A stretch of DNA of 64,000 nt from Naegleria gruberi (Eukaryota). The stretch lies in NCBI GenBank assembly GCA_000004985.1, contig GG738887.1; one strand, given 5' to 3'. Positions 323-61,258 of this stretch are shown one piece after another; within the stretch, counting starts at the first letter, position 1, and each line of letters starts with the position of its first letter. The position numbers and the translations under genes were made by a program. The notes beneath the pieces were generated by a model, which worked only from the letters and a program-made list of their open reading frames with translations, was not told the origin of the DNA and ran no database searches.

Positions 323-3300
323 ATGAAAGTGGTACTACTTGCTATTTTGTTGTGTATTGTTATGTCTGCCAAGTTCATTGACACACAAAGTCTTCTTCTC
401 TACAATATCACAACAATAGCAGGAGGTGGTTCTGTTGTGGGCGATGGTTTACTTGCTACTAATGCTCAATTAGCAATCCCTGCAGGCGTTGCAATTAGCT
501 CTATTGGTGAAATAATAATTGCTGACTCCAATAATAATAGAATTCGTAAAATAAGTACAAATGGCTACATTTCAACGATAGCAGGAACAGGAAGTGCATC
601 ATTTGGTGGTGATGGTGGACTGGCCATTAATGCACAATTAAATAGTCCTTCTGCTGTTTCTATTAGCTCAAATGGTGATATGTATATTTCGGATACGGGC
701 AATCAAAGAATTAGAAAAATCAGTACCAATGGATATATCTCAACAATTGCAGGAAGTGGAACTGGAGGATACAGTGGAGATGGCGGATTGGCCACAAGTG
801 CTCAATTATATTATCCCAAGGGAGTAGCTATCAGTCCAAGCAATGAAATTTATATAGCTGATACCTATAACCATAGAATTCGTAAAGTAAACACAAATGG
901 ATATATCTCAACTGTAGCAGGAAGTGGAACTGGAGGCTACGGTGGAGATGGTGGATTGGCCACAAGTGCTCAGGTAAACTATCCATTTAGCGTGTCAATT
1001 AGTTCTACTGGTGAAATTTATATTGCTGATTATTACAATCAAAGAATTCGAAAAGTTACAACATATGGTTTTATCTCGACTGTGGCAGGAAGTGGAACTG
1101 CTGGATACAGTGGAGATGGTGGATTGGCCACAAGTGCTCAATTATATTATCCGCTTGGTGTGTCAATTAGTTCTGCTGGTGAAATTTATATTGCTGATTA
1201 TTACAATCATAGAATTCGAAAAGTTACGACATCTGGGTACATTTCTACAATTGCAGGAACTACCTATGGTTTCAGTGGAGATGGTGGATTGGCCACAAGT
1301 GCTCAGTTGTACTATCCCAATGGCGTTTCAACAGGCTCCAATGGTGAAATATTTATAGCTGACACATACAATTATAGAATTCGTAAAATTAATACCTCTG
1401 GTTACATTTCTACAATTGCAGGAACATCAAGCTTTGGAAACAACATACCTGCTACCGGCGCCAACATAGCACCAACTGGCTCCCCTACTCTTAACAATGG
1501 TAAAATTGTATTTGCAGACACCTCTGGCCAAGTGAGGCAAGTTGACCTTACTACTAATATTATTTCTACCCTAGGTGGAACTGTTGGATCTACAACAATA
1601 GTACAGGCATTCTATAATCCAACATGCGCAAAGTATTACAAGACAGATTTATATATTCTCTACTCTAACTACTATTTAGACAAGGTCACCTCAGTTGCCA
1701 GTAAGGTTGCAGGTACTGGTACTTTAAATGGATACGGTGGAGATGGTAACCTTGCAACAAGTGCAAGATTGAATTATCCTTATGGTACTGCATTTAGCTC
1801 AAATGGAGATATGTATATTGCAGATACAAACAATAATCGAATTCGTAAAGTTACAACATCTGGATATATCTCAACTGTAGCAGGAAGTGGAACTGGGGGA
1901 TACAGTGGAGATGGTGGATTGGCCACAAGTGCACAATTAAATTATCCAAGATCAGTTGCAATTAGCTCAAGTGGAGAGATTTATATTGCTGATTTCAATA
2001 ACCACAGAATTCGTAAAATTAACATCTCTGGATATATCTCAACAATAGCAGGTACTGGAAGTGTAGGATACAGTGGAGATGGTGGATTGGCCACAAATGC
2101 ACAATTATATTATCCCCAAACAGTTGCAGTCAGCTCAAGTGGTGAAATTTATATTGCTGATGCCTATAACCATAGAATTCGTAAAATTAACACCTCTGGA
2201 TATATCTCAACAATAGCAGGTACTGGAAGTGTAGGATACAGTGGAGATGGCGGATTGGCCACAAGTGCTCAATTATATTATCCATTTAGTGTGGCAATTA
2301 GTTCAGTGGGTGAAATTTATATCGCTGATACCTATAACCATAGAATTCGTAAAATTAATACCTCTGGTTACATTTCCACAATTTCAGGAACTGGAAGTGG
2401 AGGATATAGTGGAGATGGCGGATTGGCCACAAGTGCACAATTAAATTATCCATTTAGTGTGGCAGTTAGTTCAGTTGGTGAAATTTATATAGTTGACACC
2501 AATAACTATAGAATTCGTAAAATTAATACCTCTGGTTACATTTCCACAATTGCAGGAACTGGAACTGGAGGATATAATGGAGATAGTATTTTGGCCACAA
2601 GTGCACAATTAAATTATCCTTATGGACTCACAATAAGTTCAACTAGTGAAATTATTGTTGCTGATTATTACAATCACAGAATTCGTAAAATTAACACCTC
2701 TGGTTACATTTCAACAATTGCTGGCGGTTTTGGTGATGGAGATATGGCCACCACAAGTTTCATTTCAGCTTATTCATTCGAGTTCACTTTAAATGGAGAA
2801 ATTATTATAGCTGATTCAAATAATCACAGAATTCGTAAAATTACAACATTAGGATATATTTCCACAATTTCAGGAACTGGAACTGCTGGATATAATGGAG
2901 ATGAAATTTTGGCAACAAACTCTCAATTGAATAATCCTAACGGAATTGCACTAAGTTCCAATAGTGAAATTTATATAGCTGATACCAATAACCATAGAAT
3001 TCGTAAAGTCAATGCATCTGGTTACATTTCAACAATTGCAGGAACTGGAACTGGAGGATATAATGGAGATGGTGTTTTGGCCACAAGTGCACAATTAAAT
3101 TATCCTAATGGAATTGCAATTCAAGAAAATGGTGAAATACTAATTGCTGACAATAATAATCATAGAATTCGTAAAATACGCACAAATGGCTATATTTCCA
3201 CAATTGCTGGAAGTGGAATTGGTGGATTTACTGATAATACTGTAGCAACAAGTGCTCAATTAGAAAATCCCTTGGGGGTTGCAATCGGTTCAAACAAAGA

Positions 3301-6300
3301 GATTTTTCTTACTGATTCGACCAATAAGAGAATTAGAAAACTTATCCCTTGGTGCTCAGAAAATGGCATTCTAATTAATGGAACTTGTGAATATCAATGT
3401 TTTGGAGAAACTAATAAGAACTCAACTGTTTGCTCTGGAAGAGGAAACTGTATTGGGAATGATCAGTGTAATTGCACCACTCCTCAATACTTCGGTTCAA
3501 AATGCAACCAATTTTATTGTTATGGACTATTGAACGCAATGTCAAATGTTTGTTCGTCCCAAGGTAGCTGTAATTCTCCTAATAATTGTACATGCTTTAA
3601 AGGGCATTATGGAGAAACTTGTCAATATTTTTACTGTAACTCTATTCCATTCAATTCCAGTGCTGCTTGTTTAGGTAGAGGTTCTTGTATCTCATATAAT
3701 AATTGCACATGTCAACAAGATTATGCAGGCAATGATTGTCAATATTTTTATTGTGGTAATCGTCTGAATAATGATGGTACAGTGTGCTCTGCACATGGAA
3801 ACTGTATATCTCCTCATAATTGCTCTTGCGACAGTGGTTTTTATGGAAGCAATTGTGAACAATTCGATTGTTATGGCATTAATAATTTGAATGCATCAGT
3901 TTGTTCCAGAAATGGTTATTGCTCCTCTCCAAATAATTGCAAATGTGATCTTGGTTATTATGGAAATAGCTGTGAAATGTATAACTGTTATGATATTCCA
4001 AAAACTGACCCAAGTGTTTGTTCAGGTCAAGGCCTTTGTTCTTCATATAATAACTGCACTTGTCAACAAAATTATTCAGGAGTTAATTGCGAAAATTTCC
4101 ATTGTTATGGAATATCAAAAATAGAGTCTACAGTGTGCTCATCACATGGAACATGCTTAGCGTTGAATAATTGTTCTTGCATTGATGAATATTTTGGAAA
4201 TAATTGTGACCAATTTAAGTGTTATGGTGTTAACTTTATGAACAATTCAGTTTGTTCAGGAAGAGGCCAATGTATTTCGCCAAACTATTGTAAATGTGAT
4301 CTTGGTTATTATGGAAATAATTGTGAAATGTATGATTGTTATGGGTTGTCAAAAAATAATACCAATGTATGCTCAGGTCACGGTACGTGTATTTCATTGA
4401 ATAACTGTACTTGCAGAGATGGATATTATGATTCCAAATGTGGTTCATTTAACTGTGCTGGAGAAAAATTTATAGGCCAAAACCTTTGCCAAAATAATGG
4501 CTCTTGCACTGGTCCTGGTAACTGTGAATGCCCTATTCAGTATGGAGGTGCTAGATGTGAATATTTCAAATGTTATTCATTTACATCCAATGATCCTCAA
4601 GTATGTGGAGGTCATGGAACTTGTTATAATTATAACCATTGTACTTGCTCTCAAAATTGGTTTGGAAAAGATTGTTCAGTCACCACTTGTTTTAGTACAC
4701 CTTCTAACTCTAGCTCTGTATGTGGTGGAAGAGGTAATTGTACTGATTATAACCAATGCAGTTGCAACATTGGATATAGAGGTAATGAATGTGAACATAC
4801 TGTTTGTTATGATAAGATTGAAAGTGATAGTTCTGTATGCTCTGGAAAAGGTTTATGTCTATCACCAAATAATTGCACCTGTGAAACAGGTTTTGTTGGA
4901 AGTGAGTGTCAATACCATGAAGTATATTTAAATACGTCATCCGCCATTATTTTTTCTTTCCATAACAGTCTAATGAAGTTATTACCAAATGAGAGTGAAC
5001 AATTTTCGTGTTCTGACATTTTTGAAGAATCAGAAATCGACAAATTTGGAGAAAGTTCCTCTTTCATCTGCCAATGGAGAAGAAAATCATTACAAATTCA
5101 TCTTGGTTTTGATTATGCTATTGGTCATAACTCTATCATTCAAACTAAGTTTAACTTTTCATTGAGAGTTTATACTTTATCCAATGAAGCTTCATCTCCA
5201 ACTTGTTCTTTTGGATATTCATTAACTGAAACTTCTCCCTTATTAGATATAGTGATACGTTTGAATTGTGATGACAATTTTCATGGCTTCAAGAAATTGA
5301 GAACTGATTGGTCGTGTGATCAATGCACAAACAGCGTTTCATCATTATTGAACAACTATTCAAATAGATCATCCATTTATATCCCTATTTCATATATGAA
5401 TAGTTTGACTCCTATTCAAGGTTATAAGATTATTAACTTACAAACTTCTTTTTCATCAGAGATTTATTCTACAAAATCCATCAACAAGGAAGTTAAGGTT
5501 CAATCCTATGCAAAATCATTACCTCCAAGTTATTACTGGCTAAGTGATAATTATGCTGGAAAGACATATTCATGTATTGCTCATAATTGCATTTTAGAAA
5601 CTTCTTTAAATAGTTTAAACTCTTCTATTTCTTATTCATTCTCTGGATTTTTCAGTTTATTGAATAATGACCTAAACTCTAAACAAATGGTGAGGATGAT
5701 TAATGATTATTCTGGTGGAGTTTTAGATAGCGAATTTAATTCAAATATGCAAGTATTTGGTGTTCAGCTAAAAACATATGTTTACTTACCATTAAGCATT
5801 GACTCTTTTAAATATTCAACATTTACGAACTTGGATTTTGTTATGGCAGGTGTCAATAGAACATATTCGATCAACTCAGATAGTCTGGTGACAGTTACAT
5901 TGGTAACTGATGATCCATACATCTCAAAATATACTCTAAGCGATTATTTGGAATACACTTGGAAATGCTACATGGTTTCTTCTTCAAATAGATCTCTTCT
6001 TTTGACAGATAATTTATGTTCTTCAATTGAAAACACTAGATCTTATCTTATGTTAGACATTACGAAAATGTCTTTAAAAGAAGGTTCATATGTAATATCT
6101 GCTTCGATTTCCTCTACAAAATACTTTGTCACAACCGTTTACAACTATGCAGGTTTTATTGAATTGTTGGATATTTCCAACGAATCCCCTAAAATAACCA
6201 CAGACTACTTGCCTGCAATCACACCTTCTCATAATAATATTTATTTAAGAAGTGTGGTAAACTCTTCCTCAGAGGTTTCGTTTGCTTGGAACCTCAAACA

Positions 6301-9024
6301 TGGTTATTTGAATGTTGATGAAAACATAGAAGATTTTCTCCAAAGAAACACAATTTACACAAACATCATTGACAATAACGTTGAAATCATTTTGAACGTT
6401 GATAACAAGTACATCATTCCAGGAGAATCGTATGAATTCGAATTATCAACTAAAAATTCAAAAGGTTATGCTAATGTCTCCATTTCAACAAGAGTTGACT
6501 TCTCCCCACGATTGTCATGCGATGTCGAGAATTTGAAGAATGATGCTAATATTACCAGTTTTGAATCATTGATATCCATTACTTGTGTAAAATTACCATA
6601 CGAAAGTATTTCGAGTTTTGTGATGGAATTTTATTCACAAAATGAAAGATTGGGAGTAATATCTAATACTCCAAAGAAATCCTTAGTTACTAGAGTTCCT
6701 TATTATGCACAAGATGGAATAATTACTTTGGTTGTAAAACTTCAAAACTTGTATGGATCTATTGGAGTATTTAGAAAGAATATCAAGATTGGATTACCTA
6801 ATTATTTGTCAAATGACAATACGATTATTTCCCGAGTTACTTACTCCCTAAACCAATTCCAAAATATTAAGAATTCTCAACCAGTCAAGATGGAAGTTTC
6901 AAATGAAATCAATACTTTACTTTCTCTATTAATTCAAAATGAAACTCTCTCGAAATTCTCTGAGAATGTTGTAAAGCAATTGAATTCAGCTCAATTAACT
7001 TCATTCAATACCATGCTAAGAGAAATGATCATATTAACGAAGAGTTTACAAGATATTACATACAGGGTTGATGAAAGAGTCATTCAATTGACTTTGCCCG
7101 TTGTCAGCAAGATTTGTAATATTTTAAAAATAACTCTGGACACTTCATCATTATCTTCATTCGCTCTTGATGTAGAAAAATGGTTGGATTGGATTTATTC
7201 TGGAATGGACAAAGCGCTTAATTATTATCAAACCAATATTTACAAAGACTTACTTGATAACTATCATTTGCAAGAAATAGAGTCATTACAAAACATTCTT
7301 TCAACTATTTATCAAAGTAATTTCGAGCAGCAATACAAGTTCTATAAGTATAATTTACAATACATCAAGCTGACTGGAAGCAATACTGATAATTCAAGCC
7401 TGGTGGAAAATATTGAATATTCTAATTTATTGAATGCCAAGGCTATCTCTCTCTCAATTTCCAACTTTAAGGTGGACATGAAATTACCTAATGATTTTAC
7501 GAACCAAATTTCTTTGCAATCTAAATCTAAACTATTCTATTCTATCAGATCATTTAGTAACACTGGAGCTACAAATCTTTTACAAGAAAAACCAGTGGTT
7601 GATCTATCTCTGTATGACGCCTCTTACAATATTATTAACGTCAAAAATATCAATCCACCAATTGTCTTCAAATTCCAAGGATTAATTACCAATAATAAGA
7701 CTGGCATCAATACTACTTGTATATATTATGACACAACTCTTTCAAAATGGTCTACTATTGGGTTGGAAACATACACCACAATAACTAAAAGAACAGACGA
7801 TTTTATTTACTTCGATATGGAATGTCGTTCCAGTCACTTATCAGTCTTTTCAGTTCAAGAAGTTGATTATAACTCTCCTATCACACCTATTACCGCTATA
7901 TCATCTAATAGATCTAGTAGAGATGAATCATCAACCATTTTAACAATTATATTATCAACAGTTTTACCGATTAGCCTTTTAATACTTGTTTTTATCATTA
8001 TTTTGGTTGTTTTCATGATCCTTTTATTTAGAAATAAGCAAAAGAAAGCAAATGAACTAGCAAATACAACCAATATTGAACTATCAATATCAGACTTCCC
8101 ATCTGAAGGAAGTATGTTTATTCAACCACTTACAAGCATTTCTTCCAATGGAACTGCTTCTGAATCCTTCAATCCTCTCTCTAGATATTCTAATCTGGTA
8201 AGAATTGGACAAGGATCTTTTGGATCTGTGTTTAAAGCATTTGATAACAAGTCCGATTCAGTCAAGGCAATTAAGGTTATTCGATATAATTCAATGGAAG
8301 AATTGAACAATTTTATGAAAGAAGGAACTCAATTAATGAATGTTAAACATCCTTACATTTTGAGAGTTAATGAATTCTTTGTGAGTAAGGATCAATTACT
8401 TTGTATAGATATGGACTTTTATGAACTAGGAGATTTGGTCCGATTGACCAATGTTGATTTTGACTGCTCTGAAAAATTAATTAAGCAAATAATTTTCCAA
8501 ATGTGTCAAGCTCTTGATTACATTCATAGCAATATGAAAATAATTCACAGAGACATCAAACCATCAAATATATTTGTAAAAAGTTTGGAAAATGATAACA
8601 TTCATATCATTGTTGCAGATTTTGGGTTAGCTAAAGCAAATACTACATCTACAAACAATTCTTATGCAGGTACTCCTATTTTTATGGTAAGTTTCTTTAA
8701 TTCTTCATTAATTATTAACAAGTTTAGTCTCCTGAACTTGGCTTAGGTGGAAAATATTATTATAACACGGATATTTATAGTTTAGGTGTTACAATTTATC
8801 AAATAATGACAAAAGACACATTTACATCAATAAGTCAACTTTACTTGGGCAAAGATCAAAATGAAGTATCCAAAATATTAAACAAAAAGTTATAAGAGGA
8901 TCAATACTCCCAAAGACTTACTGATTTAGTGTTATCAATGCTAACAAGAGATAATTCATCTAGACCTCAAGCTCAAGATATTTTGCAAGATTCTTATTTT
9001 GATGATTTAAGAATGAAACGATAA
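323..9024 (+). CDS. Giant receptor-like protein kinase. Order: signal peptide, about 20 NHL repeats (~400-3330), about 18 tenascin-type EGF repeats (~3340-4920), ~1,000-aa domain of unknown fold, GPS-like CxxxHLSVFSV motif (~7728-7860), one TM helix (~7936-8025), cytoplasmic Ser/Thr-type kinase. Exon 1 is 323..8686, intron 8687..8727, exon 2 starts at 8728. The frame contains an internal TAA at 8893-8895 and then continues through kinase subdomain XI to TAA at 9022-9024.
   Basis: The ORF is 2,807 aa with N-terminal MKVVLLAILLCIVMSA. It has repeated '...YISTIAG(S/T)G..GY(S/N)GDGGLAT.AQL..P..V....GEIYIAD..NHRIRK' NHL units. It has repeated 'C.G.G.C.....C.C...Y.G..C' EGF units. The hydrophobic segment is ILSTVLPISLLILVFIIILVVFMILLF followed by RNKQKK. 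Kinase motifs are GQGSFGSVFKAFD, AIKVI, HRDIKPSNIF and DFGLAKA. Splicing GTAAGT...TTTAG joins GTPIFM to SPELGLGGKYYYNTDIYSLGV (APE and subdomain IX). After the TAA, the same frame encodes LVLSMLTRDNSSRPQAQDILQDSYF (subdomain XI). Confidence 0.8.
400..4920 (+). repeat. Two intragenic tandem arrays at DNA level. The NHL array has units of about 141 nt (~400-3330). The EGF array has units of about 93 nt (~3340-4920). Several adjacent NHL units are near-identical at nucleotide level.
   Basis: Recurring nucleotide strings such as 'ggaggatacagtggagatggtggattggccacaagtgc' and 'catagaattcgtaaaattaacacctctgg' appear at about 141-nt spacing. The EGF block has recurring 'tgttatgg...tgttc...gg...tg...aattg.acttg' patterns. 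Confidence 0.7.
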
Positions 9025-9198: not shown

Positions 9199-11475
9199 TT
9201 ACTCAAACTCAACCTCTTCTTCATTCAAGCTGATGTGAGCTTGGCGGTTTTCCCACAATAAACTAACTTCAATGTCTGAAAATTTACCATTTCTAGACTC
9301 TGAGTGCACTTGGAATGTATGCAGACCTTTTGGAATTTTTCTTCTTGTGCCAGTAAATACATAAAGTCCACTACTCTTGATATCCAGTTCATCACAAACC
9401 AATTCTAAATATGAATTGTACTTGAGCATATCATTGTGAATCATTCTTAATGCTATGAGGGTTTCACATTTTCTATCAACAGTGAGATTGAATTGTTGAG
9501 TGAGAGTTTTACATCCTGAGTCATCCTCATTGACGAAATCTTTATCATCGTGTTTGAGAATTTGTTTAAAGATTGGGAACGATGAAGATTTGTGAATGGA
9601 TCTCAAAATGGTTTGATCGAATCTAAATCCGAATGCATTATCTTCCTTAAATAAATGATCAATATTTACAATATGTCCAATAGCCATAGTACCAAAGTGA
9701 TTGATAACATCACCTAGTTCCATCCAGAAAACACCATCATCTTGCTCCTCTTTTTCTTTTTGTTTTCTTGATTTCCTATCACTGGCTGTATCATTGACAG
9801 GCAAAAGTCCTGTATTTCTACATAATTGTTGAATCAGATTTGCTTGTTCAGTAACTCTTTCATTGAGGTCTCTTTTGGTTTGGGCTATCATTTCCTTGGA
9901 TACGTCAGACCAAGCTCCTGTCCATTCAGTATTTCCCCCTATAAATTTGGATAAATAATTGAAAATCAAAAAACTATACTTACATGGATTTCTCAATCTA
10001 ACTAATCTATTACCCTTGTACTCTAAGCAATCCAAAAGTGCATAATAGTGACCTCCAACAATGCCATCCTCGTTAGTAAACTCATCTCCTAAACCAGAGT
10101 TATCATCAGACCCAAAACCAATAGCATTCCCATTATTGAATCCGTTTACAATACAACACCAAATCTCATCAAAAGACAAACCTCCACCAACAATACCCTC
10201 TTCAACTACCTCTTCTTCTTGATCTTCTTCGTCTTGTTCGTCATCCTCGTAGCCTTCTTCTTCATATTCTTCTCCTTCCTCCTCATGCTCTTCAATGCAA
10301 GAAACATGATTTCTCAAATCTTCAAATTGTGGGAGGCAGCCAGTAAAAAGATAAATACCCAAAGTACCATCTCCACCCTCTACCTTGGCATAATTTCCAA
10401 ATAATTTGGCGATTGCCTTTTCAACAATCGTAGGCCACAATTCATTTTTGTCTTTAGAATGAACAACCATAATATCACCATCTGTTGTGATTGGTACAAA
10501 ATCGTCAACAGTAACATATTTCCATTCATTTCTCCAAAAGAATCTCAATGTATATTGTCCCATTGCAACATTGGCCTTGACAAATAGATGGGCTATTAAA
10601 TGTGGAAATCTTGCAATGGCTGCCAATGAACTCAATAACCAACAATCTCCAAGACTTCCTTGTCTTATATCTCTGGCATCGATGCCATCAATAATAAGTT
10701 GTGGAATTTCACATAGCTCTGAAGCTCTCTTGAACCCTCCATAATTATTTTCCTTAATTTTCTTTTTACTGAATCCAAGAGAGGTTTCATTTGGTGGGAA
10801 ATCAGGATCAACAAATGGTTCAAGTAAAGGTTGTTGTGTCTTTTGTTGAGCATAGAATTGTTCATAATTTTGGAGATATAAATATTGTGATTGATCAATG
10901 ACTTGTGAAGCTTGTGGAAAACATCCATAAGATTGTTGTTGATTACAGACAGGAGGTTGAACATGGCTGGCGTATGGTTGTTGGACCTGTGGTTGAGATT
11001 GACTTGGTACTCCATAACTTTGTGTTGGTTGACTATTTTGATATGGTTGTTGAGGTTGTGGAGGATAGGATGGTTGACTATGTTGATATGGTTGTTGTGG
11101 CACATTTCCGTATGGTTGTCCATAAGAAGGAGAGTATTGATTAGCATTGTTTTGATATATTCCTTGTGTCATGACTGGTTGTTGCTGTTGTTGATTTGGA
11201 TAATATGATCCAGCAACTTGATTAGAAGAAGGATAAGCATATGAATTCATGTGAGTTTGATGTTGTTGATTTCCTCCTCCATACGGATCGTACATGGATT
11301 GTTGAGGATTGATCACTGGTTGCTGTGGTTGTTGATGTTGAATATTAGCATTGCCATAATATTGTGGTTGTTGATTTTGATATTGGTTTGATTGATAATT
11401 GTTTGATTGTTGTTGCTGTTGTTGATTGTAATACTCGTTATTATTGGCAGGAGAATAGTTGTAAGGATTGTACAT
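9199..11475 (-). CDS. Calpain-family cysteine protease with a long N-terminal Q/N/P/Y-rich low-complexity region and an acidic insertion in the protease core. One intron at 9939..9983. CDS is complement(join(9199..9938,9984..11475)).
   Basis: The catalytic Cys motif is QGSLGDCWLLSSLAAIA, and the His context is GGHYYALLD. Removing the 45-nt GTAAGT...TTTATAG intron restores the conserved calpain motif RLRNPWGNTEWTGAWSD. The unspliced ORF reads RLRNPCKYSFLIFNYLSKFIGGNTEW instead. Confidence 0.85.
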   Translation of the reverse strand: MYNPYNYSPANNNEYYNQQQQQQSNNYQSNQYQNQQPQYYGNANIQHQQPQQPVINPQQSMYDPYGGGNQQHQTHMNSYAYPSSNQVAGSYYPNQQQQQPVMTQGIYQNNANQYSPSYGQPYGNVPQQPYQHSQPSYPPQPQQPYQNSQPTQSYGVPSQSQPQVQQPYASHVQPPVCNQQQSYGCFPQASQVIDQSQYLYLQNYEQFYAQQKTQQPLLEPFVDPDFPPNETSLGFSKKKIKENNYGGFKRASELCEIPQLIIDGIDARDIRQGSLGDCWLLSSLAAIARFPHLIAHLFVKANVAMGQYTLRFFWRNEWKYVTVDDFVPITTDGDIMVVHSKDKNELWPTIVEKAIAKLFGNYAKVEGGDGTLGIYLFTGCLPQFEDLRNHVSCIEEHEEEGEEYEEEGYEDDEQDEEDQEEEVVEEGIVGGGLSFDEIWCCIVNGFNNGNAIGFGSDDNSGLGDEFTNEDGIVGGHYYALLDCLEYKGNRLVRLRNPCKYSFLIFNYLSKFIGGNTEWTGAWSDVSKEMIAQTKRDLNERVTEQANLIQQLCRNTGLLPVNDTASDRKSRKQKEKEEQDDGVFWMELGDVINHFGTMAIGHIVNIDHLFKEDNAFGFRFDQTILRSIHKSSSFPIFKQILKHDDKDFVNEDDSGCKTLTQQFNLTVDRKCETLIALRMIHNDMLKYNSYLELVCDELDIKSSGLYVFTGTRRKIPKGLHTFQVHSESRNGKFSDIEVSLLWENRQAHISLNEEEVEFE

Positions 11476-12557
11476 TTTTTTGATTATTATTTAGTTTTAA
11501 AAACTTTCTCATGTACACACAACCAATTATTTAACCCTTTTTTCATCATGACTTGTGATTTCTCATTCATGGATAACTTGTTTTTTTCTTTTTTTTTAAA
11601 AATTAAAATTATCAAATAAGGCGCCAAACACTTTCTTAATCAAAAATCAGCCTTTATTGTTGGCTTTGCAAGAAGACAGAATGGTTTTGATACAACACAT
11701 ACATTGAGGATTTTTCTTTGAGGTCAACTCTTCGCAATTTTTCATTCTCCCTTCACCTGTCAATGGTAGCAAATTGATTTTTTCAATCCAACCTATCAAT
11801 CAAACCGGCACAACTTTGGGTAAGAAAAGTGAAAAAAACAACACAAAAAAATCGAGATTAAATTGTTGGATTTTCTTGCATTCGATATTGACCACTGTGA
11901 GTCACGTTTCCAGCTGTGCCAACAATTTTCCATCTCTCTTGAGGAAAGCAACAATCAAAAACTTTGTTTTCCAACACTTTGTACTTGTACTGCTATTACT
12001 ACTTTCTAGTTCGTTGAGTATTTCCTCAAATAGTACTGTTGCCAATAGACATTGCTCTTTCAAATTCTATAAGAAGCAACATTGTAGGTTTTATCTTGTT
12101 TTTTATAAGAAGAAAATTAAGAATTCCCACAAACTAACAACAACAATACTGCAATCATATTATATTGCAAATTCCCTAATTCTTGTTGATATTTACTTCC
12201 CTCTCCAAACAAACAAAATTTCTCCCGAATAACACACCCATTCGACTAATTTGTCCAACTCTACAAACTCACAACATTGAACACAATTTGGTAATATTTG
12301 TGTGTGTGCTGTTTCTCATCCTCGTCGTCTCCTCACTCCACACGAAAAAAAACAATACTTTTCGGGTGATATTTCTCCTCTGATTTTAATTATTTAATTG
12401 CAATTATTTATATATATTCAACTTGTGTTATCCAATCTACCTAATCTAATACTAACACTGCCACTGCTATACTACTACTTTGTATCATCCTATTTATTTT
12501 CTTCATCTTCATTACTCAATTTATTTATTTAAAAACATCACAAATCTTCATTTGAAA

Positions 12558-15287
12558 ATGTCTGCCAAAATACAAGAACGTCTGGCTTTCTTCCAGAGCA
12601 ATATTAATAGTAATAACAACAATACAACGGCTCCATTTAAGAGTTCGGTAACATCTGTTGGAAGTATTAAGCAACAACAACAGCAAGCATCTTCATTGAG
12701 TGTACAGCCAAAGCCTAGAAGTCAAACATTATTTGTCAAGCCTACTAGCACTACTTTAAATACTTCCTCTACTACTAATACGAGTGCAACAAGCAATTCT
12801 CTTAGTAAGAATAATATTACTTCCAATCCTACTATTGTTGTAAAACCTCCAACCAAGACTGTAACAATCTCCTCGACTCCTTCTGTTGTCACTACTAACA
12901 ATACTAGCACAAGGGTAAACACAGCATTATCATCCACCAATAATTCAAATAGTGATTCATCGACAAAACCAATGAGTGCAACACCTTCCGAGAAGAAACC
13001 ATCTGGAATTGCAGCAAAGTTAGCTCTCTTCAGCAATGGTAATAACAGTAATAGTAGCAATACCACACAACCAACAGTTTCTCCAAGAGCATCACCAAGA
13101 CTTTCCATTCATCTTTCCAGCTCACCATTCTTGAATGGAAGTTTGAATAATAATACGACAGCAACAACAAGTAATACTGCATCTTCCAATGCAGTACAGG
13201 CCTCTCCAAGAGCTTCACCAAGATTGTCAATTGCATTATCATCTTCACCATTTTTCAACATGGAAAAGGAAAATTCGACCAATCCTTCACCATCTACAAC
13301 ATCTTCGACCACAACAACTCCACCAACCACAAGTTCTACCACTCCAAACACAACAACAACAACTACATCGACAGCAAGTGGTAGCACCAGTACTAGTTCT
13401 TTGAAGGATAGAAAGAATTTATTCGAGCAACAACCACCGACAACTCAACCACCTGTATTTAAAACTAGAAGTGCAACTGTTATGCCATCTTCTAGACCTT
13501 CAACCACACCTTCCTTAGTCACTAGTGGAACAGGTAGTGGTGTTAAAACATCACCAGTTAGTCCTACCACAACTGCTCCGATCACTTCATCCAATGTGAC
13601 TGCAGTTCCAAATACCACCTCTTCAACAACCTCAACAACTCCGTCCACCTCTTCAATAAGTACTCCTTCGACAACAGGAAATAGTATTAAGGATAGGTTC
13701 TCAATGTTTGAGAAGAAAACAGAGGAAAAGCCACCTGTTGTTGGTTCTGGAGCAAAGTGGACAAAACCAAAGACTCAAGAAACATCGACTCCAACAACTA
13801 TTGGTGCAAATAAGAGTGTTTCTCCTCAAACTAAACCAGTTGAAGAAAAGGTGACAATTCCTCCTAAGGAAGAAAATAAGACTGAACCATCAGCTGAACC
13901 ACCAAAAGTAGCAGTGCAAGAAACTACAGTTAAAACAAAGGCTCCTGAAACAATTAAGGAAAATCCAAAAGATGATATTAAGCCAAAATCTCCAACATCT
14001 GAATTGAAACCTGAGGTCACTAAACCAGTTACTTCTCCAAGAGCAACAGAAAAAGCTGTTGAACAAAAACCTGAGCCAAAGACTGTCTCATCAACAACCG
14101 CTACTGCTTCAACTGAAAAGAAGGTAGATGTCAAACCAACTGAACCAGTTTCAAAACCAACACCAGCTACTACATCAGCTTCAGGATCCACTTCTACAAC
14201 AGGAGGTTCTCTTAAATCAAGGTTTGCCATGTTTGAAAAGAAGGAAGAACCACAACCGGTTGTTACTGCCACCAAACCAAAAGTTTCACTCTTCAAGAAG
14301 GAAACCGAAACTAGTGCTCCAACAACTGAACAAAAGGCTGAAGTTGCCAAACCTGTTGTTTCACCAACCACTGAAAAGAAGGTTGAAATTAAGGTTGTAC
14401 CAAAGCCAACAGAAGCTAATGAAGAAAAGAAGGTTGAAGTGGAAGTTGAACCAAAGTCAACTGAAACAACATCTGCTCCACCAACCACTGCTTCAACTGA
14501 AAAGAAGGTTGAGTTGAAACCAACTGAACCTGTTTCAAAACCTTCCACAACTCCAAGCACTGCCACATCAGGATCCGCTTCTACAACAGGAGGTCTTAAA
14601 TCCAAGTTTGCCATGTTTGAAAAGAAGGAACCAGCAACTCCTACTCCAAAGAAGGAAGAACCAACAACTGGCTCAAATTCTGTGAAAAACAAATTTGCCA
14701 TGTTTGAAAAGAAGGATGAACCAACTCCAGAACAACCAAAACCTAAATCAGCAGCAGGATCTGTTGCTGACAGATTCAAACCTAAAGAATCTAGTCCAGA
14801 GGTTATTACAACTCCACCTCCTTCAGAAACTAAATCCTCAAGCGTCCAAGACAGGCTAGTCAAGTTTAAGCAACCTACTGCTTCAGAAACATCTCCAACC
14901 TCTGCTGAAGCATCAGGTACTCCTAAACCATTGACCATTCAAGAAAAATTGGCCAAACTGAAACAAAATTCTGCTGGAACTCCACCACCATTCGGTTTTA
15001 TGGGTGGTCCACCTCCATCTTTTAAGAGTTCACCAAGCTCTGGTGGTGGTAATGACACTCCTTTAATTAATGTCTTTTCACCAACACCTTCCACACCAAA
15101 GGAAAATGTTCCAGATGCAGCCTCTCATGAGAGACAACACCATGGTACCTTATCTTCAGATACTGCCCTTAATAGAGTGAAAAAGGTACCTACCAACAGA
15201 AAGAAGACAGTCATTAAACACAATATTGACAAGGTAGAAAGTACCAGAAAGAGTATTGTTGCTCTCGATGTCGAGGAAGATGAATAA
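12558..15287 (+). CDS. S/T/P-rich low-complexity protein. It has about 10 copies of a short amphipathic motif ([KR][FL]A[MLF]F[EQ]KK-like, e.g. RFAMFEKKEEP) separated by Ser/Thr/Pro-rich linkers.
   Basis: Long ORF; first ATG at 12558 (MSAKIQERLAFFQ). Motifs present: SRFAMFEKKEEPQP, SKFAMFEKKEPATP, NKFAMFEKKDEPTP, DRFSMFEKKTEEKP, AKLALFSNG, KNLFEQQ. A large antisense ORF (13826..14938) is a low-complexity mirror. Confidence 0.6.
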   Translation: MSAKIQERLAFFQSNINSNNNNTTAPFKSSVTSVGSIKQQQQQASSLSVQPKPRSQTLFVKPTSTTLNTSSTTNTSATSNSLSKNNITSNPTIVVKPPTKTVTISSTPSVVTTNNTSTRVNTALSSTNNSNSDSSTKPMSATPSEKKPSGIAAKLALFSNGNNSNSSNTTQPTVSPRASPRLSIHLSSSPFLNGSLNNNTTATTSNTASSNAVQASPRASPRLSIALSSSPFFNMEKENSTNPSPSTTSSTTTTPPTTSSTTPNTTTTTTSTASGSTSTSSLKDRKNLFEQQPPTTQPPVFKTRSATVMPSSRPSTTPSLVTSGTGSGVKTSPVSPTTTAPITSSNVTAVPNTTSSTTSTTPSTSSISTPSTTGNSIKDRFSMFEKKTEEKPPVVGSGAKWTKPKTQETSTPTTIGANKSVSPQTKPVEEKVTIPPKEENKTEPSAEPPKVAVQETTVKTKAPETIKENPKDDIKPKSPTSELKPEVTKPVTSPRATEKAVEQKPEPKTVSSTTATASTEKKVDVKPTEPVSKPTPATTSASGSTSTTGGSLKSRFAMFEKKEEPQPVVTATKPKVSLFKKETETSAPTTEQKAEVAKPVVSPTTEKKVEIKVVPKPTEANEEKKVEVEVEPKSTETTSAPPTTASTEKKVELKPTEPVSKPSTTPSTATSGSASTTGGLKSKFAMFEKKEPATPTPKKEEPTTGSNSVKNKFAMFEKKDEPTPEQPKPKSAAGSVADRFKPKESSPEVITTPPPSETKSSSVQDRLVKFKQPTASETSPTSAEASGTPKPLTIQEKLAKLKQNSAGTPPPFGFMGGPPPSFKSSPSSGGGNDTPLINVFSPTPSTPKENVPDAASHERQHHGTLSSDTALNRVKKVPTNRKKTVIKHNIDKVESTRKSIVALDVEEDE

Positions 15288-19979: not shown

Positions 19980-21524
19980 TTATTTTCTTAGTGATGTCAA
20001 ATGTTTCATTTCACTAATGTATTTGGCTCCTTCACCACCAATTCGATTGTAAGACATATCAAGTGATGTCAATTGTTTCATTTCACTTATTGATTTGGCT
20101 CCTTCATCATTAATTTGATTGAAAGAAATATTAAGTGATGTCAATTGTTTCATTTCACTTATGTGACTAATTTCATTGTAAGAAATATCAAGTGATGTTA
20201 AGTGTTTCATTTCACTGATGTATTTGGCTCCTTCATCACTAATTAGATTGTTAAAAATATCAAGTGATGTTAATTGTTTCATTTCACTTATATATTTGGC
20301 TCTTTCATCACTAATTTGATTGTTAGAAATATTAAGTGATGTTAATTGTTTCATTTCACTCATGAACTTGGCTTCTTTACCACTAATTTGATTGTTAGAA
20401 ACATTTAGTGATATCAATTGTTTCATTTCGCTTAAAAATTTAGCTCCTTCATCACTAATTTGATTGTTAGAAATATCAAGTGATGTTAATTGTTTCATTT
20501 CACCAATGTATTTGGCTCCTTTACCACTAATTTGATTGTCAGAAATATTAAGTGATGTTAATTGTTTCATTTCACTTATATATTTGGCTCCTTTACCGCT
20601 AATTTGATTGTTGGAGACATTAAGTGATGTTAATTGTTTCATTTCACTTATTGGTTTGGCTCCTTCACTAATGTCATTGTAAGAAATATTAAGTGATGTT
20701 AATTGTTTCATTTCACTGATGTATTTGGCTCCTTCATCACTAATTTCATTGTAAGAAATATTAAGTGATGTTAATTGTTTCATTTCGCTTATGAACTTGG
20801 CTCCTTCTGCACCAATTTGATTGTAAGAAATATCAAGTGATATCAATTGTTTCATTTCACTTATATATTTGGCTCCTTCATCACTAATCCGATTGTTAAA
20901 AATATTAAGTGATGTTAATTGTTTCATTTCACTTATATATTTGGCTCCTTTACCACCAATTCGATTGTTAGAAATATTAAGTGATGTCAATTGTTTCATT
21001 TCACTTATATATTTGGCTCCTTTACCGCTAATTTGATTGTTGGAGACATTAAGTGATGTTAATTGTTTCATTTCACTTATTGGTTTGGCTCCTTCACTAA
21101 TGTCATTGNNNNNNNNNNNNNNNNNNNNNNNNNNNNNNNNNNNNNNNNNNNNNNNNNNNNNNNNNNNNNNNNNNNNNNNNNNNNNNNNNNNNNNNNNNNN
21201 NNNNNNNNNNNNNNNNNNNNNNNNNNNNNNNNNNNNNNNNNNNNNNNNNNNNNNNNNNNNNNNNNNNNNNNNNNNNNNNNNNNNNNNNNNNNNNNNNNNN
21301 NNNNNNNNNNNNNNNNNNNNNNNNNNNNNNNNNNNNNNNNNNNNNNNNNNNNNNNNNNNNNNAAACCACGAATCATCAATCATGGAAATTATCTCAAAAC
21401 AAATATCATCTGAAAATATTTCTTGTTGCAGTTTCACAACTTTTTTTGATTTTTCTTCCATATTGTTTTTCATATTGTTGTTGTTAGTGAATATTTCCTC
21501 CGAATTAATTGACTCGATTTTCAA
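19980..21524 (-). CDS. Leucine-rich-repeat protein (RNI-like 24-residue repeats, 'ISEMKQLTSLNISNNQISDEGAKY'). It is interrupted by an assembly gap, so the repeat number is unknown.
   Basis: ORF of 514 aa containing a run of X from the N gap. More than 20 tandem 24-aa LRR units are present. The N-terminal non-repeat segment is MKIESINSEEIFTNNNNMKNNMEEKSKK. Confidence 0.7.
   Translation of the reverse strand: MKIESINSEEIFTNNNNMKNNMEEKSKKVVKLQQEIFSDDICFEIISMIDDSWFXXXXXXXXXXXXXXXXXXXXXXXXXXXXXXXXXXXXXXXXXXXXXXXXXXXXXXXXXXXXXXXXXXXXXXXXXXXXXXXXXXXXXNDISEGAKPISEMKQLTSLNVSNNQISGKGAKYISEMKQLTSLNISNNRIGGKGAKYISEMKQLTSLNIFNNRISDEGAKYISEMKQLISLDISYNQIGAEGAKFISEMKQLTSLNISYNEISDEGAKYISEMKQLTSLNISYNDISEGAKPISEMKQLTSLNVSNNQISGKGAKYISEMKQLTSLNISDNQISGKGAKYIGEMKQLTSLDISNNQISDEGAKFLSEMKQLISLNVSNNQISGKEAKFMSEMKQLTSLNISNNQISDERAKYISEMKQLTSLDIFNNLISDEGAKYISEMKHLTSLDISYNEISHISEMKQLTSLNISFNQINDEGAKSISEMKQLTSLDMSYNRIGGEGAKYISEMKHLTSLRK
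19990..21400. repeat. 72-bp tandem repeat array (coding LRR units), about 20 copies, spanning the assembly gap.
   Basis: Unit 'ttaagtgatgttaattgtttcatttcacttatatatttggctcc(t)t(c/t)a(c)cactaatttgattgt(t/a)agaaata' recurs every 72 nt with few substitutions. Confidence 0.85.
21109..21362. other. Assembly gap (254 N) inside the 72-bp tandem repeat array.
   Basis: A contiguous run of 'n' characters. Confidence 1.
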
Positions 21525-60973: not shown

Positions 60974-61258
60974 TTACTCTTTCATAAATGAGAAAGACGT
61001 AGTAATATTAGTTTGGTTGATGTTAAGGATACGTGCTTAATAGAACTTATATTTGTTTTAAAGATCTAGTATGATTCTCTAACTGTAACCAATTACAACT
61101 AATTGATTTGGGTTCTAATGTTCATATGAGATGGAGATAAATGAGTGATTGTTGACATTAAGGAAAAATTGTTAAATTAGAGGAGCGACTTGACTCGGAC
61201 ATTTTAGGAAGCGAACAATGGATGAGAAGTGAGGAGTCCTTCACACCATCAAAAAAAA

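What the first reader, a model, noticed from the sequence alone, without database searches (positions are those of the whole stretch)
323..9024. Giant receptor kinase with an NHL-propeller array, tenascin-EGF array, GPS-like motif, TM helix and Ser/Thr kinase
One reading frame encodes, in order: a signal peptide; about 20 NHL repeats; about 18 tenascin-type EGF modules; a ~1,000-aa region with no recognisable fold; a juxtamembrane segment TCIYYDTTLSKW...DMECRSSHLSVFSV resembling the GPS/GAIN autoproteolysis motif (C-x-W...C-x-x-HL|S/T-x-F-x-V) of adhesion GPCRs and polycystin-1; a single TM helix; and a complete protein-kinase catalytic domain with HRDIKPSN, which is Ser/Thr-type. A GPS-like cleavage motif feeding a kinase instead of a 7TM domain, combined with NHL and EGF ectodomains, is not an architecture I recognise from characterised receptor families. 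It would imply a two-fragment, ligand- or mechano-gated receptor kinase. A paralog lacking (within the window) the kinase part sits at the other end of the window.
Basis: partly seen in the sequence, partly recalled or inferred. Interest (0 to 1): 0.85.

Follow-up and report, generated by a model that had tools for sequence, protein, structure and literature searches.

The report
GAIN-domain receptor kinase of Naegleria
This Naegleria gruberi gene encodes a giant single-pass surface receptor whose outer part ends in the self-cleaving GAIN/GPS module of animal adhesion GPCRs, but which signals through a Ser/Thr kinase; this combination appears undescribed, and this copy carries a premature stop codon near the end of the kinase.

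Summary
The architecture is real. The window is Naegleria gruberi. The gene is NAEGRDRAFT_70916 (XP_002673894.1, "predicted protein"); the deposited 2807-aa model is truncated because a 41-nt intron (8687-8727) was not spliced.

One 8.4-kb exon encodes:
- a signal peptide;
- 16 canonical plus about 2 degenerate NHL blades;
- 13 teneurin/tenascin-type EGF modules, not 18;
- about 620 aa modelled, at low confidence, as Ig-like beta-sandwiches;
- a GAIN domain, a single TM helix, and most of a STE20/NEK-like Ser/Thr kinase.

GAIN evidence:
- The Pfam GPS hit is just below threshold here but above it in two relatives.
- A family profile hits only adhesion-GPCR GAIN sequences at the top of the PDB search.

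All six related kinases examined read through at this position.

Same-architecture proteins exist in N. gruberi and N. fowleri. Kinase-less NHL-EGF-GPS-TM relatives exist in N. gruberi and N. lovaniensis. One paralog carries a different, TKL-like kinase.

Cleavage and mechano-gating remain inferred. Verdict: new variant of a known kind.

The parts
323..388 (+). Start codon and signal peptide (aa 1-22, MKVVLLAILLCIVMSAKF...)
   Evidence: Translation. This is the first of only two hydrophobic segments in the protein.
401..3346 (+). NHL-repeat array (aa ~27-1008). 16 canonical 56-aa repeats ending in ..N[HNQY]RIRK, plus about 2 degenerate repeats in the gap at aa 352-506. That gives about 18 blades, compatible with three six-bladed propellers (the propeller count is inferred).
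   Evidence: Pfam NHL E 3.3e-126 with 16 stretches, and TEN_NHL E 8e-117. Repeat spacing by regex.
3353..4915 (+). Array of 13 six-cysteine EGF modules of teneurin/tenascin type (aa 1011-1531, period 39 aa)
   Evidence: Pfam EGF_TEN 3.5e-61, EGF_2 8e-53, EGF_Teneurin 2e-34. 13 regex modules and 80 Cys in the region.
4916..6793 (+). Family-specific stalk (aa 1532-2157), probably a chain of Ig/FN3-like beta-sandwich domains. No Pfam family matches.
6800..7375 (+). GAIN subdomain A-like helical bundle (aa 2160-2351, 10 predicted helices; larger than the 6-helix canonical subdomain A)
   Evidence: AF2 model residues 12-203, pLDDT mostly 80-95. 233-257 residues align to the top five GAIN structures (BAI3, GPR110, Gpr126, CELSR1, LPHN3), more than the ~155-residue beta subdomain alone.
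7397..7861 (+). GAIN subdomain B-like beta-sandwich (aa 2359-2513), including the GPS motif
7715..7855 (+). GPS motif (aa 2465-2511): C2466 ... W2476 ... G2480 ... C2501-x3-H2505-L2506-S2507-x-F2509-x-V2511
   Evidence: Pfam GPS PF01825 scores 19.2 bits against a cutoff of 22.5, E 0.0018, covering profile positions 2-44 of 45. The C, W, G, C, H, L and F columns are invariant in the 12-sequence family alignment.
7835..7843 (+). Putative autoproteolysis triad H2505-L2506|S2507. It lies in the turn between the last two predicted strands (model E347-355 and E360-365).
   Evidence: Cleavage itself has not been shown.
7937..8029 (+). Single transmembrane helix (aa 2539-2569, ILTIILSTVLPISLLILVFIIILVVFMILLF), followed by the basic stretch RNKQKK
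   Evidence: Kyte-Doolittle maximum 3.64. It is the only internal hydrophobic segment.
8186..9000 (+). Ser/Thr protein kinase domain (spliced aa 2622-2879). Motifs present: GQGSFG, AIK, HRDIKPSN, DFG, SPE. It is interrupted by the intron and by the in-frame TAA.
   Evidence: Pfam Pkinase E 4.1e-53, profile positions 1-263 of 263. Best PDB relatives are MST3/STK24, E 1e-29, then STK25, ULK3, NEK1 and NEK2.
8687..8727 (+). 41-nt phase-0 intron (GTAAGT...TTTAG). If it is not spliced, the frame stops at 8744-8746, which is the end of the deposited 2807-aa model.
   Evidence: Splicing restores GTPIFM|SPELGLGGKY, which is contiguous in the related kinases P0004, P0022, P0024, P0025 and P0026. The paralog model P0002 runs into an intron at the same position.
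8893..8895 (+). In-frame TAA (codon 2844) inside the kinase C-lobe. Related kinases have Q, E, G or other sense residues in this short variable stretch, so a one-base change (CAA or GAA to TAA) is the simplest origin (inferred).
   Evidence: Sequence downstream is still conserved (..YSQRLTDLVLSMLTRDNSSRPQAQDIL..).
9022..9024 (+). Stop codon at the position where the related kinases end (after ..DDLRMKR; compare ..DQLRRRRR in P0026 and ..DDQRRRRKKK in P0004)

Best explanation
The gene is NAEGRDRAFT_70916 of Naegleria gruberi. It encodes a type I single-pass 'adhesion receptor kinase'.

Shown:
- From outside to inside the protein has about 18 NHL propeller blades, 13 teneurin-type EGF modules, a family-specific beta-rich stalk, a GAIN-type domain, one TM helix, and a STE20/NEK-like Ser/Thr kinase.
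- The GPS motif ends about 27 residues before the TM helix.
- The kinase has all catalytic motifs.

Inferred mechanism:
- The GAIN domain cuts its own chain at H-L|S2507 during maturation.
- The huge N-terminal fragment stays non-covalently held on the last beta-strand (SVFSVQE...) of the membrane-bound kinase fragment.
- Binding of the NHL/EGF ectodomain to a surface such as prey, substrate or another cell, plus traction from the crawling amoeba, pulls the N-terminal fragment off or deforms the GAIN domain.
- The stub changes oligomeric state or accessibility, and the cytoplasmic kinase switches.
- There is no 7TM pocket, so a tethered-agonist mechanism as in adhesion GPCRs cannot apply literally. 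The logic would be closer to force-gated shedding, as in Notch, SEA-domain proteins or polycystin-1.

This particular copy carries a premature TAA that removes kinase subdomain XI. As assembled it may be a very recent null or hypomorphic allele, or a sequence error. Intact members exist: N. fowleri FDP41_013523, and the N. gruberi kinase fragment P0026.
For: One gene:
- A single 8364-nt exon runs from the signal peptide to kinase subdomain VIII.
- The intron position is conserved in a paralog.

Domains and topology:
- Pfam domain assignments.
- Only two hydrophobic segments.

GAIN:
- Sub-threshold Pfam GPS here: 19.2 bits against a cutoff of 22.5.
- Above threshold in relatives P0010 (23.2) and P0012 (25.7).
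- C, W, G, C, H, L and F are invariant across 12 family members.
- The profile search of PDB sequences returns adhesion-GPCR GAIN domains as its top seven hits.
- AF2 model: pLDDT 78.7, pTM 0.71, a helical subdomain plus a beta subdomain, with HLS in the turn before the last strand.
- The two retained cysteines are C1 and C3 of the four-Cys motif. In CL1 these form one disulfide, while the C2/C4 pair is missing together (sequence; pairing from my memory of Arac 2012, not re-read).

Family:
- The same architecture occurs in N. gruberi 70317 and 49308 and in N. fowleri FDP41_013523.
- The same ectodomain-GAIN cassette is joined to a TKL-like kinase in NAEGRDRAFT_80821.
- Kinase-less NHL-EGF-GPS-TM relatives exist in N. 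gruberi and N. lovaniensis.
- HL|S is a cleavage-competent variant in EMR2/CD97 (own knowledge, Lin et al. 2004).
Against: - No experimental evidence for cleavage. Many GAIN domains with an intact HL-T/S are poorly cleaved or uncleaved.
- The Pfam GPS score in this protein is below the curated cutoff.
- Foldseek against the PDB did not retrieve GAIN; it was dominated by helical-repeat noise.
- Subdomain A has about 10 helices rather than 6.
- The first GPS tryptophan is Y or F in this family, and only one of two disulfides is present.
- The AF2 model is a prediction from a shallow alignment (12 sequences, only 4 over the helical part).
- A single-pass protein has no obvious receiver for a tethered agonist.
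- This copy's kinase is truncated by TAA 8893-8895, so it may not signal at all.
- No expression data were available.
Confidence: 0.6

Rival explanations
1. Uncleaved structural GAIN. The GAIN domain serves only as a rigid juxtamembrane stalk or protein-interaction platform. The receptor is switched like ordinary single-pass receptor kinases, by ligand-induced dimerisation or clustering of the NHL/EGF ectodomain, with no role for autoproteolysis.
For: - Paralog NAEGRDRAFT_80821 keeps the cassette with a degenerate site, YLS instead of HLS, so cleavage is not obligatory for all members.
- Several animal aGPCR GAIN domains are not cleaved (own knowledge).
- There is no 7TM to receive a tethered agonist.
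Against: H, L and S/T at P1' are invariant in all 12 aligned members from three Naegleria species and one Lapot gusevi fragment, although mean column identity is only 28%. That points to selection on the cleavage triad itself.
Confidence: 0.25
2. This copy is a pseudogene or null allele. The TAA at 8893-8895 is real, the kinase lacks subdomain XI and is unstable or inactive, and the locus is decaying or acts only as a kinase-dead adhesion protein.
For: - An in-frame TAA sits where the six related kinases examined (P0003, P0004, P0022, P0024, P0025, P0026) all have sense codons.
- A naturally degenerate pseudokinase paralog exists: NAEGRDRAFT_49308, with HGNIKTSN and GSGRTF. Kinase-dead members are therefore tolerated.
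Against: - The 8.4-kb upstream ORF is completely intact.
- The 43 codons after the TAA are still in frame, conserved (RPQAQDIL), and end at the family's usual stop.
- Any inactivation must therefore be very recent. A base-call error or one allele of a heterozygous or polyploid strain explains it equally well.
- No independent sequence of the locus was found.
Confidence: 0.12
3. The GPS-like string is a chance resemblance and the juxtamembrane region is not a GAIN domain.
For: - The Pfam GPS hit is below the gathering threshold.
- phmmer of the region against PDB sequences found nothing relevant.
- Foldseek against the PDB found no GAIN.
Against: - Relatives pass the Pfam threshold.
- The family profile hits only aGPCR GAINs at the top.
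- The position just before the TM is as in all known GAIN proteins.
- UniProt auto-annotates relative P0010 as GAIN-B.
Confidence: 0.03

Closest known systems
Adhesion GPCRs (ADGRL/latrophilin, ADGRB3/BAI3, ADGRE5/CD97, ADGRG1/GPR56, ADGRG6/GPR126)
   Same: - Large adhesive ectodomain built from repeats (EGF and others).
- A GAIN domain placed directly before the first TM.
- A GPS with the C..W..G..C-x3-HL|S/T-x-F pattern.
- HL|S as in CD97/EMR2.
   Different: - One TM helix instead of a family-B2 7TM.
- The output is a cytoplasmic Ser/Thr kinase, not a G protein.
- Only one of the two GPS disulfides is present.
- The first Trp is replaced by Tyr or Phe.
- The helical subdomain is larger.
- There is no HormR domain.
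- The organism is a heterolobosean, whereas the GAIN-7TM fusion is reported to be holozoan (PMC12716839).
Polycystin-1 / PKDREJ / sea-urchin suREJ proteins
   Same: - These are non-GPCR membrane proteins with a GAIN/GPS immediately before the first TM.
- A long, poorly characterised beta-rich region (REJ) precedes the GAIN.
- suREJ1 is reported to have a single TM (own knowledge).
   Different: - No Pfam REJ, PKD, PLAT or polycystin channel-type domains were detected.
- The cytoplasmic output is a kinase.
Naegleria fowleri 7TM-RGS proteins with GPS motifs (Bosch et al. 2022, PMC9283941)
   Same: - Same genus.
- EGF-containing ectodomains followed by a GPS motif before the membrane.
- They show that Naegleria uses GPS modules on surface receptors.
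   Different: - Those have a 7TM plus a cytoplasmic RGS box.
- This protein has one TM plus a protein kinase, and NHL propellers at the N-terminus.
Teneurins (source of the Pfam TEN_NHL and EGF_TEN models)
   Same: A six-Cys EGF array and an NHL propeller are the best-scoring Pfam models for the ectodomain.
   Different: - Teneurins are type II proteins with EGF before NHL, and with a YD shell and a Tox-GHH domain.
- Here the protein is type I, NHL precedes EGF, and no YD/Rhs domains are present.
- The resemblance is at the level of domain types only.
Single-pass receptor Ser/Thr kinases (plant RLKs, Entamoeba TMKs, TGF-beta receptors) and STE20/NEK kinases
   Same: - Type I topology with a cytoplasmic ePK domain.
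- The kinase is closest to STE20 (MST3, 1e-29) and NEK structures.
   Different: - None of these families is known to have a GAIN domain (own knowledge; literature searches found none).
- STE20 and NEK kinases are normally soluble.
Notch NRR and SEA-domain mucins/dystroglycan (mechanistic analogy only)
   Same: A pre-cleaved or cleavable juxtamembrane module in a single-pass protein, which converts pulling force on the ectodomain into a change in the membrane stub.
   Different: - Unrelated folds.
- Signalling there proceeds by further proteolysis and release of an intracellular domain, not by a kinase.

Membership tests
GAIN domain (GPS-containing autoproteolysis-inducing domain) | GPS sequence motif recognised by the curated model (Pfam PF01825, cutoff 22.5 bits) | tested here: inconclusive
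   This protein scores 19.2 bits, E 0.0018, over profile positions 2-44 of 45. Relatives P0010 (23.2) and P0012 (25.7) pass; others score 17.6-20.6.
GAIN domain (GPS-containing autoproteolysis-inducing domain) | About 320-residue fold: helical subdomain A plus a beta-sandwich subdomain B whose last five strands are the GPS | tested here: met
GAIN domain (GPS-containing autoproteolysis-inducing domain) | H-L|T/S/C triad in the turn between the last two strands | tested here: met
   H2505-L2506-S2507 lies between model strands 347-355 and 360-365. H and L are invariant, and P1' is S or T, in 12 of 12 family members.
GAIN domain (GPS-containing autoproteolysis-inducing domain) | Conserved Cys and Trp pattern (4 Cys, 2 Trp) | tested here: inconclusive
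   Only C1 and C3 and the second Trp are present. C2 and C4 are absent together, and the first Trp is Y or F.
GAIN domain (GPS-containing autoproteolysis-inducing domain) | Position immediately N-terminal to the first TM segment | tested here: met
   27 residues lie between V2511 (the end of the GPS) and the TM start at 2539.
GAIN domain (GPS-containing autoproteolysis-inducing domain) | [quoted passage not shown] | not testable with these tools
   This needs expression and immunoblot or N-terminal sequencing.
Adhesion GPCR (class B2) | Seven-transmembrane domain after the GAIN domain | tested here: not met
   There is one internal hydrophobic segment only, and no 7tm Pfam hit. The protein is not an aGPCR.
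Polycystin-1 / PKDREJ family | REJ domain, PLAT domain and a multi-pass polycystin TM region | tested here: not met
   No REJ, PLAT or PKD_channel hits even at E up to 10 on the stalk. There is a single TM.
Eukaryotic protein kinase, Ser/Thr type | Gly-loop, VAIK Lys, alpha-C Glu, HRDxKxxN, DFG and APE/SPE motifs | tested here: met
   GQGSFG, AIK, KEG, HRDIKPSN, DFG and SPE are present. Pfam Pkinase scores 180.9 bits over profile positions 1-263 of 263.
Eukaryotic protein kinase, Ser/Thr type | Uninterrupted C-lobe through subdomain XI (conserved Arg) | tested here: not met
   An in-frame TAA at 8893-8895 lies upstream of ..SRPQAQDIL... This applies to the sequence as assembled and may be an allele or an error.
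NHL-repeat beta-propeller | Tandem NHL repeats in multiples that close a propeller | tested here: met
   16 Pfam NHL stretches with a 56-aa period, plus about 2 degenerate repeats. Closure into three six-bladed propellers is inferred, not modelled.
Teneurin | Type II topology, YD-shell/Rhs core, ABD/Tox-GHH | tested here: not met
   Only the NHL and EGF models hit. The protein has an N-terminal signal peptide and type I topology.

The most novel reading that the evidence does not exclude
Naegleria possesses a family of autoproteolytic, force-gated single-pass receptor kinases. In these, the GAIN domain acts as a portable mechanical fuse or sensor that controls a Ser/Thr kinase (STE20/NEK-like or TKL-like) rather than a 7TM. 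If so, GAIN-mediated adhesion or mechanosensing evolved, or was redeployed, independently of G-protein signalling in an excavate lineage. The tethered-agonist/7TM coupling of animal adhesion GPCRs would then be only one of several outputs of an older module.
Probability: 0.35. Interest if true: 0.8.

Novelty: new variant of a known kind. Interest (0 to 1): 0.6.

Why it matters
GAIN domains are studied almost entirely as the activation switch of animal adhesion GPCRs and polycystin-1. A conserved Naegleria family places a GAIN domain with an intact HL|S/T site in front of a single TM helix and a protein kinase, and two different kinase families are used as output.

- It would show that the GAIN module is output-agnostic.
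- It offers a simple system for asking what GAIN cleavage and N-terminal-fragment release do when there is no 7TM pocket for a tethered agonist.
- It adds a receptor-kinase class to a lineage for which I know of none described.
- It concerns a genus that includes the brain-eating pathogen N. fowleri. The ortholog FDP41_013523 is a large surface-exposed kinase and therefore a conceivable adhesion or host-sensing factor and drug target.
- Practically, the deposited models for NAEGRDRAFT_70916 and 70317 are mis-terminated in an unspliced intron and should be corrected.

Tried and rejected
1. Word-indexed homolog searches with the stalk+GAIN region and with alignment A1 returned nothing, not even the self sequence. 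I treat this as a failure of the tool's candidate retrieval for these queries, possibly because the sequence is low-complexity (N/S-rich), not as absence. The exhaustive HMMER search found the family.
2. Exact-protein contig look-ups for two neighbouring ORFs and for P0001 found nothing.
3. phmmer of the GAIN region against PDB sequences gave only a spurious coiled-coil hit.
5. Ciliate-type genetic code (TAA = Gln) as an explanation for the in-frame TAA: rejected. The 2788-codon first exon contains no TAA, TAG or TGA at all, and Gln is encoded by CAA/CAG 87 times.
6. A second micro-intron removing the TAA: rejected. The only GT..AG around it is 8 nt (GTTATAAG), and homology to MST3 and to the related kinases runs straight through in frame.
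7. An exact-pattern scan of JGI metagenome contigs for an independent copy of the TAA region gave 0 hits.
8. Literature searches found nothing on this architecture. These covered GAIN/GPS plus Naegleria, NHL plus Naegleria, GAIN plus single-pass plus kinase, and the locus tags and accessions. The only relevant paper describes GPS motifs in N. fowleri 7TM-RGS proteins.
9. REJ-domain identity of the stalk: no Pfam support. The low-confidence model matches only generic Ig-like domains.

Full report
**What is in the sequence**

The + strand carries an uninterrupted ORF from 323 to 8746, 2807 codons. Its translation starts with a hydrophobic signal peptide. It continues through NHL-like and Cys-rich repeats and ends inside a protein-kinase domain.

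The ORF stop at 8744-8746 lies in an intron.
- The sequence GTAAGT...TTTAG (8687-8727, 41 nt) follows ...GTPIFM.
- Removing it joins in frame to SPELGLGGKYYYNTDIYSLG..., which restores the kinase activation-segment/APE region.
- The related kinases P0004, P0022, P0024, P0025 and P0026 have GTP(L/I)FMSPE(L/M).. contiguous.
- The deposited model of paralog P0002 runs into an intron at exactly the same place, GTPLFM|VCYLS..*.

The exon-2 frame continues to a TAA at 9022-9024, after ..DDLRMKR. This is where the related kinases end (..DQLRRRRR, ..DDQRRRRKKK).

**Identity**

The exhaustive HMMER search returned the unspliced ORF product itself at 100% identity (P0001).
- It is EFC41150.1 / XP_002673894.1 / D2VPM5, 'predicted protein NAEGRDRAFT_70916' of Naegleria gruberi, on a 508-kb scaffold.
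- The window composition (about 33% GC) and its neighbours are consistent with that organism.
- No paper in the searchable library mentions this locus or its paralogs.

**Domains**

- NHL: Pfam gives E 3e-126 with 16 stretches, and TEN_NHL also hits.
- EGF: EGF_TEN, EGF_2 and EGF_Teneurin hit.
- Kinase: Pkinase E 4e-53, full-length profile match.
- A regex count shows 16 canonical ..RIRK repeats spaced 56 aa apart. A 154-aa gap holds two degenerate repeats, giving about 18 blades.
- There are 13 regular six-Cys EGF modules with a 39-aa period.
- Hydropathy shows exactly two hydrophobic segments: aa 1-22 (signal peptide) and aa 2536-2573 (TM, followed by RNKQKK). This gives a type I topology.
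- The kinase has GQGSFG, AIK, HRDIKPSN, DFG and SPE. It is closest to STE20-group MST3/STK24 (E 1e-29), then STK25, ULK3 and the NEKs.

**The GPS/GAIN question**

Sequence evidence:
- The isolated 78-aa segment hits Pfam GPS over profile positions 2-44 of 45. The score is 19.2 bits against a gathering cutoff of 22.5 (E 0.0018).
- The exhaustive search with aa 1532-2575 found 15 proteins.
- Three share the whole architecture:
  - N. gruberi 70317 (P0002).
  - N. gruberi 49308 (P0003/P0016).
  - N. fowleri FDP41_013523 (P0004/P0017), which UniRef names 'non-specific serine/threonine protein kinase'.
- Several shorter proteins from N. gruberi and N. lovaniensis have the order NHL, EGF, short stalk, GPS, TM, short tail.
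- One transcript fragment comes from Lapot gusevi.
- Two of these relatives pass the Pfam GPS threshold: P0010 at 23.2 and P0012 at 25.7.
- UniProt already auto-names P0010 'GAIN-B domain-containing protein'.
- In a 12-sequence alignment with 28% mean column identity, the invariant columns are P, I, F, C318, W328, G332, C353, H357, L358 and F361. These include the GPS hallmarks and the cleavage His-Leu. P1' is always Ser or Thr.
- Only two of the four canonical cysteines are present. They are C1 and C3. In latrophilin these pair with each other, and the C2/C4 pair is absent together (pairing from my memory of Arac 2012).
- A profile of this alignment searched against all PDB sequences returns adhesion-GPCR GAIN domains as its top seven hits. 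These are ADGRG6 (E 0.0014), G1 twice, G3, F1 and L3 twice. The alignments run from the '..L..P(I/V)..F..' strand through C..W..G..C..HLT.FAV.

Structure evidence:
- AlphaFold2 on aa 2149-2545 with that alignment gave mean pLDDT 78.7 and pTM 0.71.
- The model has about ten helices (aa 2160-2351) followed by eleven strands (aa 2359-2513).
- HLS lies in the turn between the last two strands.
- Foldseek against the PDB was uninformative because of helical-repeat noise.

I conclude that the juxtamembrane region is a GAIN-type domain with a divergent, larger helical subdomain. Chance resemblance is very unlikely.

**The rest of the 'unknown' region**

- aa 1532-2157 has no Pfam match.
- It is conserved only within the Naegleria family, at 31-41% identity.
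- An AF2 model is strand-rich but of low-to-medium confidence (pLDDT 61, pTM 0.35).
- I treat 'chain of Ig-like beta-sandwiches' as tentative. There is no evidence for a polycystin REJ domain.

**The premature stop**

- Homology to MST3 runs straight through codon 2844.
- Near this position the six related kinases examined all have sense codons:
  - P0004 has ..KLQEGQEYS..
  - P0026 has ..KKMEEPGQYS..
  - P0003 has ..TLGERYS..
  - P0022, P0024 and P0025 also read through.
- The 43 codons after the TAA remain in frame and conserved (..SRPQAQDIL..).
- A ciliate code is excluded. Exon 1 has no TAA or TAG, and Gln is encoded by CAA/CAG 87 times.
- A micro-intron is excluded, because the only GT..AG around the stop is 8 nt.
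- The TAA is therefore most simply explained by a one-base change (CAA or GAA to TAA; inferred, since the aligned column is not resolved to one residue). It could be a very recent nonsense mutation, one allele, or an assembly error.
- I could not find an independent copy of the locus to decide between these.
- If real, it removes subdomain XI and probably cripples this copy's kinase.

**Family context and mechanism**

- The same ectodomain-GAIN-TM cassette is attached to several outputs:
  - an intact STE20/NEK-like kinase, in N. fowleri FDP41_013523;
  - a degenerate pseudokinase, in NAEGRDRAFT_49308, with HGNIKTSN and GSGRTF;
  - a different, TKL-like kinase, in NAEGRDRAFT_80821.
- The TKL-like kinase of 80821 has HRDLKTAN and is 28% identical to this one. 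Its PK_Tyr_Ser-Thr score is nearly equal to its Pkinase score, and its cleavage site is degenerate, YLS.
- Kinase-less relatives keep a near-canonical C.T.HLTSFAVID.
- In N. fowleri, GPS motifs behind EGF/lectin ectodomains have been published for 7TM-RGS proteins (PMC9283941).
- GAIN domains are known to predate Holozoa. Dictyostelium and Tetrahymena have them (Arac 2012, PMC3321182). The GAIN-7TM fusion is considered holozoan (PMC12716839).
- Neither Arac 2012 nor the keyword searches turned up a GAIN domain upstream of a protein kinase.

The best-supported reading is a type I adhesion receptor kinase.
- Shown: domain order, topology, GAIN-type fold (predicted), conserved HL|S/T, and catalytically competent kinase motifs.
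- A literal tethered-agonist mechanism is not possible without a 7TM pocket. Force-gated shedding (Notch, SEA-domain proteins, polycystin-1) is the better analogy.

The main rival is a non-cleaving structural GAIN with ordinary ligand-induced clustering.

**Novelty and verdict**

The gene and its family are already deposited but uncharacterised and partly mis-modelled. The components (GAIN, NHL, EGF, ePK) are all known kinds. The combination GAIN, single TM, protein kinase, conserved across Naegleria species and used with two kinase families, appears undescribed. I rate it a new variant of a known kind, with interest 0.6. The rating is tempered by the lack of any experimental evidence for cleavage and by the premature stop in this particular copy.

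Noticed in passing
window 61229-64000 (+): A second family member runs off the window end. It has a signal peptide (..KWHLVILLLLVLVFSVHC), then NHL repeats interrupted by short introns, then teneurin-type EGF modules from about 63400. It is 32-48% identical to the first gene's NHL and EGF parts, and its N-terminus is visibly similar to NAEGRDRAFT_70317 (P0002) by inspection. Its GAIN and kinase parts, if any, lie outside the window.
   Followed up: partly
window 323-8746 versus public records: The deposited gene models for NAEGRDRAFT_70916 (2807 aa) and NAEGRDRAFT_70317 (2271 aa) both terminate inside the same unspliced short intron after GTP(I/L)FM. Both therefore lack the kinase C-lobe. At least P0026 ('protein kinase', 217 aa, starting inside the N-lobe) looks like the detached kinase end of such a receptor; the origin of the other short N. 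gruberi kinase models (P0022, P0023) was not checked.
   Followed up: partly
P0027 (NAEGRDRAFT_80821, not in window): This paralog has the same NHL, EGF, stalk, GAIN-like cassette. Its cleavage site is degenerate (CQYLSS, Tyr instead of His). It carries a TKL-like kinase (HRDLKTAN) that is only 28% identical to the window's kinase. This is evidence for shuffling of output domains behind one ectodomain cassette.
   Followed up: partly
P0003/P0016 (NAEGRDRAFT_49308, not in window); locus L001: This paralog's kinase has lost key catalytic motifs (HGNIKTSN for HRDxKxxN; GSGRTF Gly-loop). It is a probable pseudokinase version of the receptor. A near-identical copy is encoded without interruption on a 7.4-kb contig of an ENA 'metagenome' assembly (ERZ929261).
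   Followed up: no
window 46589-47854 (+): A 421-aa ORF with a poly-Asn-rich N-terminus and about six NHL repeats. It has no signal peptide, EGF or TM. It is a separate, probably cytoplasmic, NHL-propeller protein, about 23-29% identical to the receptor's NHL array.
   Followed up: no
window 19980-21524 (-): An ORF made of about 24-aa leucine-rich repeats (..ISEMKQLTSLNISNNQISGKGAKY..). It is interrupted by an assembly gap (a run of N, translated as X).
   Followed up: no
window 9199-11475 (-): A convergently oriented 758-aa ORF directly downstream of the receptor gene. It has a Gln/Pro-rich N-terminus and a ..GSLGDCWLLSSLAAIA.. motif typical of the calpain catalytic cysteine. The assignment is by eye only and was not tested.
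   Followed up: no
window 12480-15287 (+) and 13826-14938 (-): A 935-aa Ser/Thr/Pro-rich low-complexity ORF with repeated ..(R/K)FAMFEKK.. units. The 370-aa ORF on the opposite strand is probably a shadow of it.
   Followed up: no
window 59774-60973 (+): A 399-aa ORF built of about ten Sel1/TPR-like repeats (..KAFEWFLKAAE.G...AQ...G..Y..G.G..KD..), immediately upstream of the second receptor paralog.
   Followed up: no
tool behaviour: The word-indexed protein search returned no hits for this N/S-rich sequence, although the query protein itself is in that collection. Negative results from that tool on low-complexity eukaryotic proteins should not be read as absence.
   Followed up: yes
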